NCBI GenBank assembly: GCA_963790025.1 | Contig: CAWBMP010000003.1 | Location: 212,799-276,798, forward strand | Reading direction: 5' to 3' | DNA length: 64,000 nucleotides | From: Nitrospirota bacterium | GTDB taxonomy: Bacteria; Nitrospirota; Thermodesulfovibrionia; Thermodesulfovibrionales; Dissulfurispiraceae | Shown here: positions 47,224 to 50,687 of the stretch, piece after piece | Position numbering within the stretch: position 1 is the first letter of the stretch | Layout: each line of letters starts with the position of its first letter | Program-made: the position numbers and the translations under genes | Notes under the pieces: model-generated | Database searches by the model: none | Seen by the model: the letters and a program-made list of their open reading frames with translations, nothing else | Told to the model about the DNA's origin: nothing

Positions 47224-47707
47224 AAATCCTCCTGCTTTTTAGGGTAAAATCTAAAAAATCCGTCAAGGTAATTATAGTTTTAAAAACAGTTCATTGTCAA
47301 TTTTACAGGCAAAAATCTACCTTAGGGCATATCGACCTTTATTGCTACTGATATATTGACCTCCCGCAGGTGTTCGTTGTTTAAACTTAGTATAGCAGGT
47401 TTCTAATGCCTTTCTTCTCAATCATCTTGCTCGTGCCCTGTATTTGTCTGCGTACAACTTTTTTATACTGGATGTGCTAAAGCATGGATCGACCCGTCAA
47501 AAAAAAATTCACGGACTATACGTCACATTGGTAAAGAAGATTTTATGCTTGCCAGTAAAAAGATTCAGTTACCTTGAAAAAATAAAATAACTTTGCCATT
47601 ATTTTTACCCGTTACACCTGAAAATCATATAGAGGGCACCTCCTGAGCATATCTTTTTTGAGGTATGCTCAAGGAAAGAGACCAATCTAACCTTTGGGAG
47701 GTGCCGT

Positions 47708-48727
47708 ATGAAATTGTACACAGCTTTTGATCTTCATTCAAACAATTCGTATTTGGGGATCATTGATGAGAATGGCAAGAGGATATTTAAAAAGAAGCTT
47801 GCGAATGATTCGGCAGCGATAAAGGAAACACTTATGCCTTTCAAAGCAGATATTGAAGGGATTGTCGTGGAGTCAACGTATAATTGGTATTGGCTTGTTG
47901 ATCTGCTTAAAGAAGAGGAATACAAAGTACATTTAGCGAACCCAGCGAAGATTCAGCAGTATTCCGGATTGAAGTACTCTGACGATAAGCACGATGCATT
48001 CTGGCTTGCAGAGATGCTGCGGCTAGGCATACTGCCCAAGGGATATATTTATCCGAAAGAAGAACGACCGATACGTGATCTGCTGAGGAAGAGGAGTCAC
48101 TTAGTGAGATTACGGACAGCGCTCATTGTCAGTCTCCAAAACATTGTCGCACGGAATCTTGGTAGCAAGCTCAAGGCAAATGATATAAGAATTTTAACGA
48201 CGGACCGGGTAGCCCCTCTATTTCAGGAGAATGAGGATCTTGCACTAGCCGGTAAAGTAAGCAAGGAAGCCATAGACTTCATGACCAGGCAGATCAAATC
48301 TATGGAGGCCACTATCGATGAAAGGATACACTTAAGCAAACCCTATGAACGTCTATTGAGTCTTCCTGGGGTTGGGAAAATCCTTGCATTTACGATCATG
48401 CTGGAAACCGGTCCTATTGAGCGATTCCAGAAAGTGGGCAACTACGTATCGTATTGCAGGAAGGTTCCCAGCGCGAGGTTCAGCAACGATAAGAAAAAGG
48501 GTGCTGGCAATAGAAAAAATGGGAACAAGTATCTTGCATGGGCTTTTTCAGAGGCTTCGGATCATGCGCGGCTTTTTGATGCTGACTGTCGAAAATATTA
48601 CCAGCGCAAGCTGCAGAAGACGAACGCCGCGGTAGCGCACAATGCTCTTGCTCATAAGCTGGCAAGGGCGGCTTATTACATCATTAGGGATGATGTTGTA
48701 TTTATGCGGGACAAAGCATTTGTATAG
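47708..48727 (+). CDS. IS110 DEDD recombinase/transposase
   Basis: AFDLH, VEST, SDKHDA (DEDD RuvC-like); LPGVG; RFSNDK Ser region; GNKYL. Confidence 0.95.
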   Translation: MKLYTAFDLHSNNSYLGIIDENGKRIFKKKLANDSAAIKETLMPFKADIEGIVVESTYNWYWLVDLLKEEEYKVHLANPAKIQQYSGLKYSDDKHDAFWLAEMLRLGILPKGYIYPKEERPIRDLLRKRSHLVRLRTALIVSLQNIVARNLGSKLKANDIRILTTDRVAPLFQENEDLALAGKVSKEAIDFMTRQIKSMEATIDERIHLSKPYERLLSLPGVGKILAFTIMLETGPIERFQKVGNYVSYCRKVPSARFSNDKKKGAGNRKNGNKYLAWAFSEASDHARLFDADCRKYYQRKLQKTNAAVAHNALAHKLARAAYYIIRDDVVFMRDKAFV

Positions 48728-48731
48728 AGCT

Positions 48732-48997
48732 CTGGAGGGACGGTGAACCTGCGAGTTATTTGGCAAAACCAAGCACCTGAATGGCAGACCGTTTCCTCCA
48801 GTCACATAAAAGTTATCGGCGTCTTTACTGTCCGCGTCGGGAGCCAGTTACGGTTGGCTAATAACCATGCTATCTGAGATAAAAAAAATGGACCCGGCCC
48901 GGGACCGAAGGTTTTCTGGACCGCTTAAAGGCGGAAAGGGTCTGCCTCGCAGTATAGCCTTTGGGGCATGATCTTAATCCTGATGGGTGATTGGTGC
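48732..48997 (+). ncRNA. Putative bridge RNA / seekRNA of the IS1111-type element
   Basis: Two stem-enclosed internal loops whose segments match the target (GTTAT, CACCTGA) and the donor junction (TTTTC, ATGGGTGA); boundaries approximate. Confidence 0.75.
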
Positions 48998-49251
48998 AGT
49001 GAAGACTGACACATTAAAGTAAAAGAAGAAACGGCACTGGTTATGGACGTTGATAACTTGGAGCAATGAAGACAAGAACACTTTTCTTGTGATAGTAATA
49101 TTTTGTCTATTGACATGTGCCCTCTATATGGGTGCCCTCTATATGGGTGATAACAAACACATTTTTCTATTGATTAAATCCGCGGATTACTGGTAGAAAT
49201 ATATGAAGTTGGTAGAGACAGAAATTGAGATAGTGGGACGGGAACAGAGGA

Positions 49252-49267
49252 AAATGGGATGTGTCCC
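49252..49267 (+). repeat. 16-bp inverted repeat, left copy
   Basis: AAATGGGATGTGTCCC, exact reverse complement of 50830-50845. Confidence 0.8.
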
Positions 49268-49334
49268 TGATTTTTCCAAATAATTGGTAATAATACCTTG
49301 CATCAGTTCATTTGGTTATAGTATTTTATTTCCA

Positions 49335-50687
49335 ATGAAGCTCTTTGCATTGCAATTGGCGCTTTTCAGTCTTCTCTTTTCGGCTGGCCTATCCATTGCA
49401 GCCGACAAGCCTGCCAAGAGAATAGACAACTACATCGCAGTTTTTGATCTTGAAACAAACGAGGCCGTCGAAAAAGGCATCTCTTTTCCGTTATCGGAAA
49501 GCGTTCGTCGTGAACTTGTCTTATCGGGAAAGTATGAAGTGATAGATCGCGGGAATATGAATAAGATTCTGGGTGAGCAGAAATTTCAGTTATCGGGATG
49601 TGTCTCGGGCCAGTGCGTAGTTGAGGCTGGACAGGTGCTTGGGGTAGGGAAAATAATTGCAGGATCGGTCAGCAAGCTGGGCGGCACATACTACTTGTCA
49701 TTGTCACTTATCAATGTTCAGACGGGAAAGATCGAGAACATTTCTGAAGACAAGTGCAAGTGTGAAGTAGACGACCTGATAGATTCGAGCAAAAGACTTG
49801 CAAGGAGACTTTTGGGCGAGAAGGTGGAAGACGCCCTCCAACAGACAACAGCGATCTCTGGCACCTACAGAAAACAAGGGACAGCTTCTGCATCTGCCGG
49901 GGCCGCGCCTGCATACACAGACCCGGCAAAAGGTATGGAGTTTGTATTTGTCAAAGGCGGCTGTTATAAAATGGGCAACACGTTTGACGATAAGTTCAAA
50001 AACGAAGGCATACCGGTTCACGAAGTCTGTGTCAATGACTTCTACATGGGCAAATATGATGTTACCGTAGGGGATTTTAGGTGGTTTGTTGATGATACCG
50101 GGTATATTACCGAGGCTGAAAAGGGTTACGGATGTTACTACTGGACAGGGAGTCAATGGTACAGGGACAGCTACCATAATTGGCATGATCCCGGCTTTAG
50201 GCAGCAAGAGCGTGAACCTGTGGTTTGTGTATCCTGGAATGATGCTCAGGTATTTGCGAGTTGGATGCAGAAGAAGAGCGGCAAGGCTGTGCGCCTTCCA
50301 ACAGAAGCCGAATGGGAATATGCAGCGAGGAGCGGCGGCAAGCAAGAGAAATATGCCGGTGGCAATAACGTAGACAGCGTGGCATGGTATGGAGGGAACT
50401 CTGGCATGAGAACTCATCCGGTAGGGCAGAAGCAGCCCAACGGATTGGGACTATACGATATGAGCGGTAACGTATGGAAATGGATGCTGGACTGGTACGA
50501 GGAGAGTTATTACAGTAGCAGCCCGAGAAACGATCCTCCAGGACCTTCGATGGGTACCTATCGTGTGGTTCGTGGTGGCGGTTTTCGTGAGAATACGCAA
50601 GGAGGCGTGAGGACAGCCTTTCGTTTCTGGAACAGCCCCGACGATAGCTTAGCCAACCACGGGTTTCGTTTGGTGTTGGTAAAGTAA
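49335..50687 (+). CDS. Exported protein: CsgG/TolB-N-like domain fused to an FGE-sulfatase domain
   Basis: IAVFDL...EVIDRGNMNKILGEQKFQLSGC...GQVLGV; RLPTEAEWEYAAR, GLYDMSGNVW, GFRL. Confidence 0.85.
   Translation: MKLFALQLALFSLLFSAGLSIAADKPAKRIDNYIAVFDLETNEAVEKGISFPLSESVRRELVLSGKYEVIDRGNMNKILGEQKFQLSGCVSGQCVVEAGQVLGVGKIIAGSVSKLGGTYYLSLSLINVQTGKIENISEDKCKCEVDDLIDSSKRLARRLLGEKVEDALQQTTAISGTYRKQGTASASAGAAPAYTDPAKGMEFVFVKGGCYKMGNTFDDKFKNEGIPVHEVCVNDFYMGKYDVTVGDFRWFVDDTGYITEAEKGYGCYYWTGSQWYRDSYHNWHDPGFRQQEREPVVCVSWNDAQVFASWMQKKSGKAVRLPTEAEWEYAARSGGKQEKYAGGNNVDSVAWYGGNSGMRTHPVGQKQPNGLGLYDMSGNVWKWMLDWYEESYYSSSPRNDPPGPSMGTYRVVRGGGFRENTQGGVRTAFRFWNSPDDSLANHGFRLVLVK

What the first reader, a model, noticed from the sequence alone, without database searches (positions are those of the whole stretch)
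47611..49160. IS1111-type bridge recombinase with guides readable directly from the sequence
Seen: removing the element at the shared TGA gives target GTTACACC-TGA-TAACAAA and donor junction TATATGGG-TGA-AAATCATA. Downstream of the recombinase, hairpin 48732-48801 holds an internal loop with GTTATT (48755-48760, pairs with GATAAC with one wobble) and CACCTGA (48774-48780, identical to the left target). A second loop has GTTTTC (48911-48916, pairs with GAAAAT) and ATGGGTGA (48983-48990, identical to the left donor). All four register on the GA core. Known: IS110/IS1111 elements use such non-coding RNAs. Inference: an intact, reprogrammable RNA-guided recombinase with GA core and an unusually long insert within the donor loop.
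Basis: partly seen in the sequence, partly recalled or inferred. Interest (0 to 1): 0.8.

Follow-up and report, generated by a model that had tools for sequence, protein, structure and literature searches.

The report
IS1111-type insertion sequence with guide RNA
This is a jumping gene of a known RNA-guided type (IS110/IS1111 family) whose guide RNA can be read from the sequence; it is a new member of that type, and its RNA carries an extra, unexplained third guide-like loop.

Summary
Window 47619-49149 is a single-copy, 1529-bp IS110-family element of the IS1111 type. It has a 339-aa DEDD recombinase, 15-bp subterminal inverted repeats and a roughly 420-nt non-coding region 3' of the gene.

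The hairpin 48733-48800 is a target-binding loop. Across about 60 related elements, its two arms change together with the left and right flanks (0 of 10,000 permutations reach the observed match). A donor-binding domain (RDG 48910-48916, LDG 48983-48989) is conserved across the whole family.

Three points need correcting:
- The shared core is TG, not GA. Seven relatives share only TG between their two junctions. The following A and the next base behave as handshake-like guide positions.
- The "long insert" in the donor loop is a conserved multi-branch domain, and IS1111 donor loops are already reported to be multi-loops.
- That domain holds a third, target-loop-like internal loop (48832-48902). 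Its core and its -1 base track the target. I found no description of such a loop.

Whether this copy is still active is unproven. A 15-nt right-end duplication removes the junction promoter that 31 of 51 relatives can form, and the right guide pairs with only 5 nt plus a wobble.

The scan earlier noted a two-loop bridge RNA in an IS110-group element of another genome (e1-2596275), not this family.

The parts
47613..47618 (+). Left target flank (LT). CACC 47615-18 matches the left target guide; the two outer bases do not.
   Evidence: 4 of 6 variable positions match. Across the family the mean is 4.23 for own flanks against 2.11 for other elements' flanks.
47619..47620 (+). Core dinucleotide TG, left copy.
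   Evidence: TG is the only sequence shared by both junctions in 7 relatives; the core is TG in both loops in 25 of 28 distinct elements, and is AG or CG in both loops of L021 and L038.
47621..47707 (+). Left end (right donor arm, RD, AAAATCAT...) with the left subterminal inverted repeat at 47626-47640. TG plus AAAAT gives a 7-nt extension before the repeat.
   Evidence: 15 of 15 complementary. (left end conserved family-wide as TGA-TAATCATAT...). The 7-bp left extension of IS1111 elements is stated in PMC11187229 section 7.
47708..48727 (+). Recombinase gene, 339 aa (DEDD RuvC-like domain plus Tnp domain).
   Evidence: D8, E55, D93, D96 and S259 are conserved.
48733..48800 (+). Target-binding loop hairpin. 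Outer stem 48733-43 with 48789-800; GAACC 48745-49; right target guide arm 48750-60 (pairing part 48755-60); inner hairpin 48761-71; left target guide plus core 48772-79; handshake-like AA 48780-81; closing GG 48783-84.
   Evidence: (all 11 outer-stem pairs show compensatory changes). for guide-flank covariation.
48825..48830 (+). 5' strand of a long-range helix (TTACTG) that closes the donor domain. Its partner is 48997-49002 (CAGTGA).
   Evidence: helix 4 has 6 pairs, 3 with changes on both sides, and 93.7% of cells paired. A local hairpin 48997-49010 is an alternative pairing.
48832..48902 (+). Third, target-loop-like internal loop ('loop 2'). Stem 48832-41 with 48893-902; GAGCC; 5' arm 48846-54; inner hairpin 48855-67; 3' arm GCTATC plus TG 48869-76; closing GG 48890-91.
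   Evidence: a loop-2 pattern was parsed in 66 of 67 elements that have a target loop; L042 was missed and L007 mis-parsed. (stem: 8 of 11 pairs compensatory). (the base next to the core matches target -1 in 95% of elements against 42% for other elements' flanks).
48903..48996 (+). Donor-binding part. Right donor guide GGTTTTC 48910-16; TGG 48917-19; hairpin A 48920-35; variable hairpin B 48936-75; left donor guide ATGGG plus TG 48983-89; handshake-like AT 48990-91; TGG 48992-94.
49110..49115 (+). TTGACA, the -35 half of the junction promoter that forms on circularisation.
   Evidence: TTGACA, 17-18 nt, GATAAT spans the computed circle junction in 31 of 51 relatives. It does not in the window.
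49117..49147 (+). Right end: a tandem 15-nt duplication of the right subterminal inverted repeat (49117-31 and 49132-46), ending in GGG.
   Evidence: D5, I3, I5; the same kind of duplication is in L003, L007, L008, L014 and L067, while L004-L006 have a single copy.
49148..49149 (+). Core dinucleotide TG, right copy.
49150..49154 (+). Right target flank (RT) ATAAC, paired by the right target guide. The G of the core can add a G-U wobble.
   Evidence: 5 of 8 positions match; the family mean is 5.96 against 3.53.

Best explanation
Window 47619-49149 is one copy of an insertion sequence of the IS110 family, of the IS1111 type.

Parts shown here:
- A 339-aa DEDD/Ser recombinase gene.
- A structured non-coding RNA region of about 270 nt downstream of the gene, on the same strand. 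Its first hairpin is a target-binding loop. The 5' arm is complementary to the top strand to the right of the insertion point. The 3' arm is identical to the top strand to the left of the insertion point plus the core TG.
- A second, multi-branch domain that carries the donor guides for the joined element ends (...ATGGG-TG-AAAATC...).

Mechanism inferred from IS621 and ISEc11:
- The element excises as a circle. The recombinase-RNA complex then pairs the RNA loops with both strands of the target and of the circle junction, and exchanges strands at TG, without a target duplication.
- The two bases after the core in each loop match the partner DNA: the target loop matches the element's left end, and the donor loop matches the right flank. 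They most likely act as handshake guides after strand exchange.

A third loop, built like the target loop, sits inside the donor domain. It copies only the core and the base before it, and its role is unknown.

This copy sits at a partly matching site (CACC-TG-ATAAC) and may be weakly active or inactive.
For: Protein.
- Pfam PF01548 (61.1 bits, cut-off 29) and PF02371 (49.4 bits, cut-off 21.3).
- NCBIfam NF033542, 'IS110 family RNA-guided transposase', 169.5 bits against a cut-off of 140.
- D8, E55, D93 and D96 are conserved in 74-75 of 75 aligned relatives; S259 is S in 72 and T in 3. S259 aligns with the Ser of the SG motif of ISCro4.

Anatomy.
- 15 of 15 subterminal inverted repeats.
- Non-coding DNA: 87 nt between the core and the start codon, against about 420 nt after the stop codon.

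Target loop.
- The same scaffold is in 66 of 79 related loci.
- Left guide against left flank: mean 4.23 of 6 for own flanks, 2.11 for other elements' flanks, n=43 sites.
- Right guide against right flank: 5.96 of 8 against 3.53, n=50. In both tests 0 of 10,000 permutations reach the observed sum, also with one site per guide and without the largest target group.

Donor guides are conserved family-wide.

Core.
- TG follows the right end in 38 of 50 distinct right junctions, and TGA closes 39 of 43 left junctions.
- 7 elements share only TG between their junctions.
- The core changes to AG (L021) or CG (L038) in both loops together.

Handshake-like bases.
- The first base after the core in the donor loop matches RT +3 in 95% of elements against 24% for other elements' flanks; the second matches RT +4 in 59% against 20%. 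n=22, and 0 of 10,000 permutations reach the observed sum.
- In the target loop, the two bases after the core match RD +3 and +4 in 19 of 23 elements. The window is the one AA/AA pair.

RNA structure.
- 95.6% of cells are paired, against 86.6% in shuffles and 30-46% when the partners are slid.
- 29 of 48 pairs have compensatory changes.
- Frequent G-U pairs fit the + strand.

The guide order (top-strand complement 5' of the bottom-strand complement) is that of IS1111 seekRNAs (PMC11187229 section 9).
Against: - No RNA or mobility evidence. No RNA run is listed, and no match reached an Rfam family's gathering score.
- No empty site was found. The intergenic flank is not conserved in 9 congeners.
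- There is only one full copy in the genome.
- The window's own guide match is weaker than the family mean (left 4 of 6, right 5 of 8). 125 TG sites in the genome score better, and two identical 11-mers are unoccupied.
- The 15-nt right-end duplication and the GAAAAT -10 variant mean no junction promoter forms from the outer end.
- The C-terminal motif is C-R-x-V-x5-S-N, not the G-x2-P-x4-S/T-G described for the family.
- 8 relatives with TGA at the left junction (plus L005, whose left junction is CGA) have CG or TA instead of TG at the right junction. A simple two-strand exchange within a shared TG does not explain this.
- The register of the right guide relative to the core differs by one base between guide groups.
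Confidence: 0.85

Rival explanations
1. The element is of this kind, but this copy is an immobile relic. It arrived by transfer, inserted once at a second-best site and can no longer express recombinase and RNA from a circle.
For: - Single full copy.
- No -35/-10 pair across the computed junction, unlike 31 of 51 relatives.
- The -10 hexamer is GAAAAT instead of GATAAT.
- The right guide pairs only 5 nt plus a wobble.
- No perfect target exists in the genome; the best site scores 12 of 14.
Against: - The ORF is open, all family-invariant residues are kept, and only 6 positions depart from a consensus of 85% or more.
- All RNA helices are intact.
- The left-end change (T to A at +4) is matched by the target-loop base 48781, which suggests selection after that change.
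- The inner repeat copy could serve as the end and would give TTGACA, 18 nt, GAAAAT (read).
- A promoter-like site in the left flank (47574-47602) reads into the element.
Confidence: 0.3
2. One reading: the crossover core is GA, and all four guides register on it.
For: In the window, and in 25 of 43 relatives with both junctions read, both junctions read TGA, so GA is shared there too.
Against: - 7 relatives have left TGA but right TGC or TGT.
- The A covaries as a guide position with the partner DNA, not as a fixed core.
- When the core varies (AG in L021, CG in L038), the base that changes is the one before G.
Confidence: 0.05
3. The guide matches are chance, and site choice is made by the protein alone.
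For: For this window alone the target match has a chance level of about 0.2-0.5%, which is not overwhelming.
Against: Family-wide covariation of both arms with both flanks: 0 of 10,000 permutations reach the observed match. Published reprogramming of IS1111 seekRNAs (PMC11187229 section 10, passages seen).
Confidence: 0.02
4. Loop 2 is a decaying duplicate of the target loop with no function of its own.
For: It has the same scaffold as the target loop. Its arms match the flanks only weakly beyond the core: 5' arm 4.20 of 8 for own flanks against 3.37 for others', and 3' arm positions -2 to -6 near background.
Against: - A loop-2 pattern was parsed in 66 of 67 elements, and a matching loop was seen by eye in a 45%-identical betaproteobacterial relative.
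- The stem shows 8 of 11 compensatory pairs.
- The GAGCC, TGG, CCA and TG motifs are kept.
- The base next to the core tracks the target as tightly as in the true target loop (0.95 against 0.42). It equals the target loop's -1 base in 95% of 61 elements.
- The loop-2 core switches to AG together with the other loops in L021. In L038, however, loop 2 keeps TG while the other two loops have CG.
Confidence: 0.25

Closest known systems
IS1111-family elements with seekRNA: ISEc11, ISPa11, ISKpn4 (Siddiquee et al. 2024, PMC11187229; sections 6, 9 and 13 read, passages of 7, 8, 10, 12 and 14 seen)
   Same: - DEDD recombinase of 330-350 aa (ISEc11 is 339 aa, as here).
- Subterminal inverted repeats and a 7-nt left extension.
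- The long non-coding region lies 3' of the gene.
- The guide hairpin starts just after the stop codon.
- The top-strand-complement segment lies 5' of the bottom-strand-complement segment.
- ISEc11 inserts right after a TG (review table in PMC13604230, passage seen).
   Different: - The non-coding region is about twice as long: about 420 nt against 205 nt deleted in the ISEc11 construct.
- The RNA has three guide-type loops.
- The C-terminal motif is S-N instead of S/T-G.
- The protein is too distant for tblastn to find the common enterobacterial IS1111 members among plasmids: the best plasmid hit is 49% identical, and all 343 records are under 60%.
IS621 bridge RNA (IS110 group; Durrant et al. 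2024, PMC11208160, section 12 and passages; Hiraizumi et al. 2024, PMC11208158, passages)
   Same: - Two loops, each reading both strands of one DNA.
- A 2-nt core present in target, donor and both loops.
- Dinucleotide handshake guides next to the core.
- A junction promoter formed on the circle.
- IS1111 donor-binding nucleotides are reported to lie in a multi-loop.
   Different: - The RNA lies 3' of the gene, not 5'.
- The order of the arms is reversed.
- The core is TG, not CT.
- The handshake-like bases extend the bottom-strand-pairing arms (LTG and LDG) and match the bases 3' of the core. In IS621 they extend RTG and RDG and match the bases 5' of the core.
- There is a third loop.
IS4321/IS5075 (IS1111 family; insert into terminal repeats of Tn21-type transposons; known to me only from the titles in reference lists and from recall)
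   Same: Many relatives of this element insert into one repeated motif that ends in GACCCC. This recalls terminal repeats of Tn3-family transposons; that likeness is recalled, not tested.
   Different: The window's own lineage has different guides and sits in an ordinary intergenic region.

Membership tests
IS110 family RNA-guided recombinases | N-terminal DEDD RuvC-like domain (PF01548) plus C-terminal Tnp domain (PF02371) | tested here: met
   both are above Pfam's cut-offs. NF033542 scores 169.5 bits against 140.
IS110 family RNA-guided recombinases | Catalytic D-E-D-D residues and the C-terminal nucleophile Ser | tested here: met
   D8, E55, D93 and D96 are in 74-75 of 75 relatives; S259 is S in 72 and T in 3. 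It aligns with the Ser of the SG motif of ISCro4.
IS110 family RNA-guided recombinases | C-terminal motif G-x2-P-x4-S/T-G (PMC11187229 section 6) | tested here: not met
   the clade has C250-R251-x-V253-x5-S259-N260. The G is replaced by R (75 of 75), P is present in 27 of 75, and the final G is replaced by N (73 of 75). The Ser itself is kept.
IS1111 group | Subterminal inverted repeats of 7-17 bp | tested here: met
   15 nt, 100% complementary (47626-40 with 49131-45).
IS1111 group | The longer non-coding region lies downstream of the recombinase gene | tested here: met
   87 nt between the core and the start codon, against about 420 nt after the stop codon.
IS1111 group | Recombinase groups with IS1111-type recombinases in a tree | not tested
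Of solved structures, only ISCro4 was hit, at E 0.0015.
IS1111 group | Insertion without target-site duplication at a specific site | tested here: inconclusive
   No empty site was found. The flanks of relatives fit one continuous guide-specified target that shares only the core.
Bridge RNA / seekRNA | An internal loop whose two arms pair with opposite strands of the target on either side of the core and covary with it | tested here: met
Bridge RNA / seekRNA | A second loop that pairs with the joined element ends (donor) | tested here: met
   the guides are conserved and complementary or identical to the conserved ends. Covariation is limited because the ends hardly vary. The core covaries in L021 and L038.
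Bridge RNA / seekRNA | The RNA is expressed and bound by the recombinase | not testable with these tools
   No RNA run holds the region. No match reached an Rfam family's gathering score.

The most novel reading that the evidence does not exclude
This clade of IS1111-type elements uses a three-loop guide RNA. Besides the target and donor loops, it has a third recombinase-binding loop nested in the donor domain. That loop reads only the core and the base before it, and weakly the first bases after it. It acts as a separate checkpoint or handshake module, for example for excision or for strand transfer between junctions. This would be an architecture not described for bridge RNAs or seekRNAs.
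Probability: 0.3. Interest if true: 0.65.

Novelty: new member of a known kind. Interest (0 to 1): 0.4.

Why it matters
As it stands, this adds a well-annotated IS1111-type element from an uncultured Nitrospirota lineage. Its guides, core, handshake-like bases and ends can all be read off the DNA, and about 60 relatives show natural retargeting on one scaffold. That is a useful comparative set for designing guides for 3'-RNA bridge recombinases.

The third loop could matter more. If it is functional, it shows that these RNAs can carry more than two DNA-reading modules. That bears on how excision and directionality are controlled and on guide engineering.

The junction asymmetry could also matter. 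Eight relatives keep TG at the left junction but have CG or TA at the right. This fits a preprint's claim that integration goes mainly through one strand (10.1101/2025.10.25.684509; abstract and discussion read). I did not test that.

Tried and rejected
- Rfam 15 scan of 47300-49500: only one sub-threshold snoRNA match (E 0.47).
- Empty site: the left flank beyond the thioredoxin gene is not conserved in 40 relatives' genomes, and the right flank is absent from the 9 congener loci.
- Sequencing runs: no RNA holder is listed. The one DNA holder (X1) gave only short contigs identical to the window, one of which bridges the left junction. There was no empty-site or circle joint.
- Locating ends by inverted repeats alone failed for many distant loci. 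I used the conserved end motifs instead.
- Two regexes for the right end and the left donor guide missed close relatives and were rewritten.
- Loop 2 as a donor loop, as a junction-specific loop (left target guide plus right donor guide), or as a reader of more distant flank positions: no supporting signal in a position-by-position scan of -16 to +18.
- Plasmid search for characterised IS1111 members: none is close enough. The best hit is 49% identical. The 32%-identical Alteromonas element has a different non-coding region.
- Literature searches for a third or additional loop in bridge RNAs found nothing relevant. Figures and the supplements of PMC11208160 and PMC11187229 were not seen and may show such loops.
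- Earlier scan notes: nothing on this family.
Full report
**1. What is there**

The ORF 47708-48727 (+) encodes a 339-aa protein.
- It carries Pfam PF01548 (DEDD_Tnp_IS110) and PF02371, both above cut-off.
- It passes NCBIfam NF033542, 'IS110 family RNA-guided transposase', at 169.5 bits against a cut-off of 140.
- In an alignment of 75 translations, D8, E55, D93 and D96 are in 74-75 of 75. These 75 are the ones open for at least 325 aa, out of 80 (79 related loci plus the window). S259 is S in 72 and T in 3.
- S259 aligns with the Ser of the SG motif of the only solved relative found, ISCro4 (9t56, E 0.0015).
- The clade's motif is C-R-x-V-x5-S-N, not the published G-x2-P-x4-S/T-G (PMC11187229 section 6).

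The element ends.
- A perfect 15-nt subterminal inverted repeat lies at 47626-40 and 49131-45. The right copy is tandemly duplicated (49117-31 and 49132-46).
- Non-coding DNA is 87 nt between the core and the start codon, and about 420 nt after the stop codon.
- The genome holds one full copy, plus a 36-nt right-end-like fragment on another contig.

**2. Relatives**

A scan of one genome per species found 323 stretches encoding relatives. The best 80 were kept as 79 loci, at 57-87% identity. They come from Nitrospirota/Thermodesulfovibrionales and Desulfobacterota, with a few from other phyla.

The left end (TGA-TAATCATAT...GGCACC) and the right end (GGTGCC...AATGGG-TG) are conserved throughout.

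**3. Target-binding loop**

In 66 of 79 loci, and in the window, the DNA just after the stop codon has one scaffold. Its order is: outer stem; GAACC; about 11 variable nt; TGG-loop-CCA; 6-7 variable nt plus TGA; TTGG; outer stem. The 13 loci without it have another or a disrupted 3' region.

The junctions were anchored on the conserved end motifs, not on the guides.
- The 6 variable nt of the 3' arm match the 6 nt left of the junction: mean 4.23 for own flanks against 2.11 for other elements' flanks (43 distinct sites).
- The reverse complement of the 5' arm matches the right flank: 5.96 of 8 against 3.53 (50 sites).
- In each test 0 of 10,000 permutations reach the observed sum. The same holds with one site per guide (32 and 34 sites) and without the large group of ACC-type guides (23 sites).
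- Rows without a readable flank (contig ends, or end motif not found) were dropped before counting.

Close relatives show retargeting on an almost identical scaffold: L003, L004/L006, L007 and L008.

The arm order is that reported for IS1111 seekRNAs.

The window itself matches 4 of 6 on the left and 5 of 8 on the right, which is below the family mean.

**4. Donor-binding domain**

The arm GGTTTTC-TGG (48910-19) pairs with the left end GAAAATC, with one G-U. ATGGG-TG (48983-89) is identical to the right end plus core. Both are followed by the same TGG signposts as in the target loop, and both motifs are conserved in nearly all relatives.

Between them lie a hairpin with compensatory changes and a variable hairpin.

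RNAalifold on 43 sequences gives a structure with these properties:
- 95.6% of cells are paired, against 86.6% in shuffles and 30-46% when the partners are slid.
- 29 of 48 pairs change on both sides.

A long-range helix (48825-30 with 48997-49002) closes the whole domain.

So the 'long insert' is a conserved multi-branch domain. Durrant et al. already note that donor-binding nucleotides of many IS1111 RNAs lie in a multi-loop (PMC11208160 section 12).

**5. Core and handshake-like bases**

Junction counts:
- Of 50 distinct right junctions, 38 have TG after the terminal GGG, 6 have CG, 4 have TA and 2 have AG.
- Of 43 distinct left junctions, 39 end in TGA.
- Seven elements have left TGA and right TGC or TGT, so only TG is shared.

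The core is TG in both loops in 25 of 28 distinct elements. It is AG in both loops of L021 and CG in both loops of L038.

The bases after the core behave as guide positions.
- In the donor loop, the first base after the core matches right-flank position +3 in 95% of elements (24% for other elements' flanks). The second matches +4 in 59% (20%). n=22, and 0 of 10,000 permutations reach the observed sum.
- In the target loop, the two bases after the core match the element's left end at +3 and +4 in 19 of 23 elements.
- The window has AA where the family has AT, and its left end has AA where the family has AT.

Against a simple picture: 8 relatives with TGA at the left junction (plus L005, whose left junction is CGA) have CG or TA at the right junction. 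A preprint reports predominantly top-strand integration for another IS110 element (10.1101/2025.10.25.684509; abstract and discussion read). That could give such an asymmetry, but I did not test it.

The register of the right guide also differs by one base between guide groups.

**6. A third loop**

Between the long-range helix and the donor arm lies a hairpin at 48832-48902 with the target-loop scaffold: stem, GAGCC, arm, TGG-loop-CCA, arm plus TG, then GG and stem.
- A loop-2 pattern was parsed in 66 of 67 elements that have a target loop; L042 was missed and L007 mis-parsed. A matching loop was seen by eye in a 45%-identical Paraburkholderia plasmid element.
- Its stem has 8 of 11 compensatory pairs.
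- The base before its TG equals the target loop's -1 base in 95% of 61 distinct elements (40% between elements). It equals the flank's -1 base in 95% of 37 (42%), or 88% of 48 in the wider set.
- Its core is AG in L021, like that element's other loops. In L038 it stays TG while the other two loops have CG.
- Other positions match the flanks weakly. The 5' arm scores 4.20 of 8 against 3.37 between elements.
- No other flank position from -16 to +18 gives a signal.

I found no description of such a loop in the text of the papers searched. Figures and supplements were not seen.

**7. State of this copy**

In 31 of 51 relatives the computed circle junction carries TTGACA, 17-18 nt, GATAAT. In the window it does not, because of the 15-nt duplication and a GAAAAT hexamer. 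Using the inner repeat as the end would restore the spacing.

The same kind of right-end duplication occurs in L003, L007, L008, L014 and L067.

A promoter-like site in the left flank reads into the element.

No perfect target exists in the genome. The best site scores 12 of 14, and 744 of 442,368 TG sites score at least as well as the occupied one. Two identical CACC-TG-ATAAC 11-mers are unoccupied, where 1.7 are expected by chance.

No RNA or circle evidence could be had.

**8. Verdict**

This is a new member of a known kind, with one feature (the third loop) that deserves a bench test.

Noticed in passing
window 48832-48902, and the same place in L003-L081: A third internal loop with the target-loop scaffold lies inside the donor domain. 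Only its core and its -1 base covary tightly with the target.
   Followed up: yes
window 49117-49146; L003, L007, L008, L014, L067: The right subterminal repeat is tandemly duplicated (14-22 nt) in several separate lineages, while their close relatives have a single copy. The junction between the copies reads like right end plus TG plus the interior of the repeat. This suggests recombination at the TG inside the repeat.
   Followed up: partly
G000:C5:75047-75083 (L002, about 1495-1540): A solo fragment of about 30 nt resembles 1.5 right-end repeats. It is followed by TGA and a flank (ATAACCAACAC) similar to the window's right flank. It may be a footprint or a deletion remnant of a second copy.
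   Followed up: partly
L016-L018, L046-L051, L057 and other loci with ACC-type guides: Many relatives, in different genomes, sit in one repeated motif (...GAGCCAAGAG-GAGACT-TG-ACCCC...). Read on the other strand it starts with four G, like terminal repeats of Tn3-family transposons (recalled, not tested).
   Followed up: no
L004-L007, L009, L022, L045, L055, L058, L060: The right junction has CG or TA where the left junction and both RNA loops have TG. L060 and L062/L063 have the same flanks but differ (CG against TG).
   Followed up: partly
G000:C2:38851-39999, C4:206819-207967, C4:511423-512571, C4:1311511-1312659; also C2:338667-339815: The same genome holds another IS110-family element in four equally scoring copies, a fifth distinct one, and two split copies. 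None is related closely enough to match the window's element as DNA.
   Followed up: no
window 47574-47602: A sigma-70-like site (TTGAAA, 17 nt, CATTAT, with TG before the second hexamer) lies in the host flank about 20 nt upstream of the insertion point and points into the element.
   Followed up: no
window 48783-48799 with 48930-48946: A 17-nt stretch of the target-loop 3' stem is 88% complementary to the stretch spanning the 3' strand of hairpin A and the start of hairpin B. One position differs in a compensatory way between the window and L003. It may be an alternative pairing or a trace of loop duplication.
   Followed up: no
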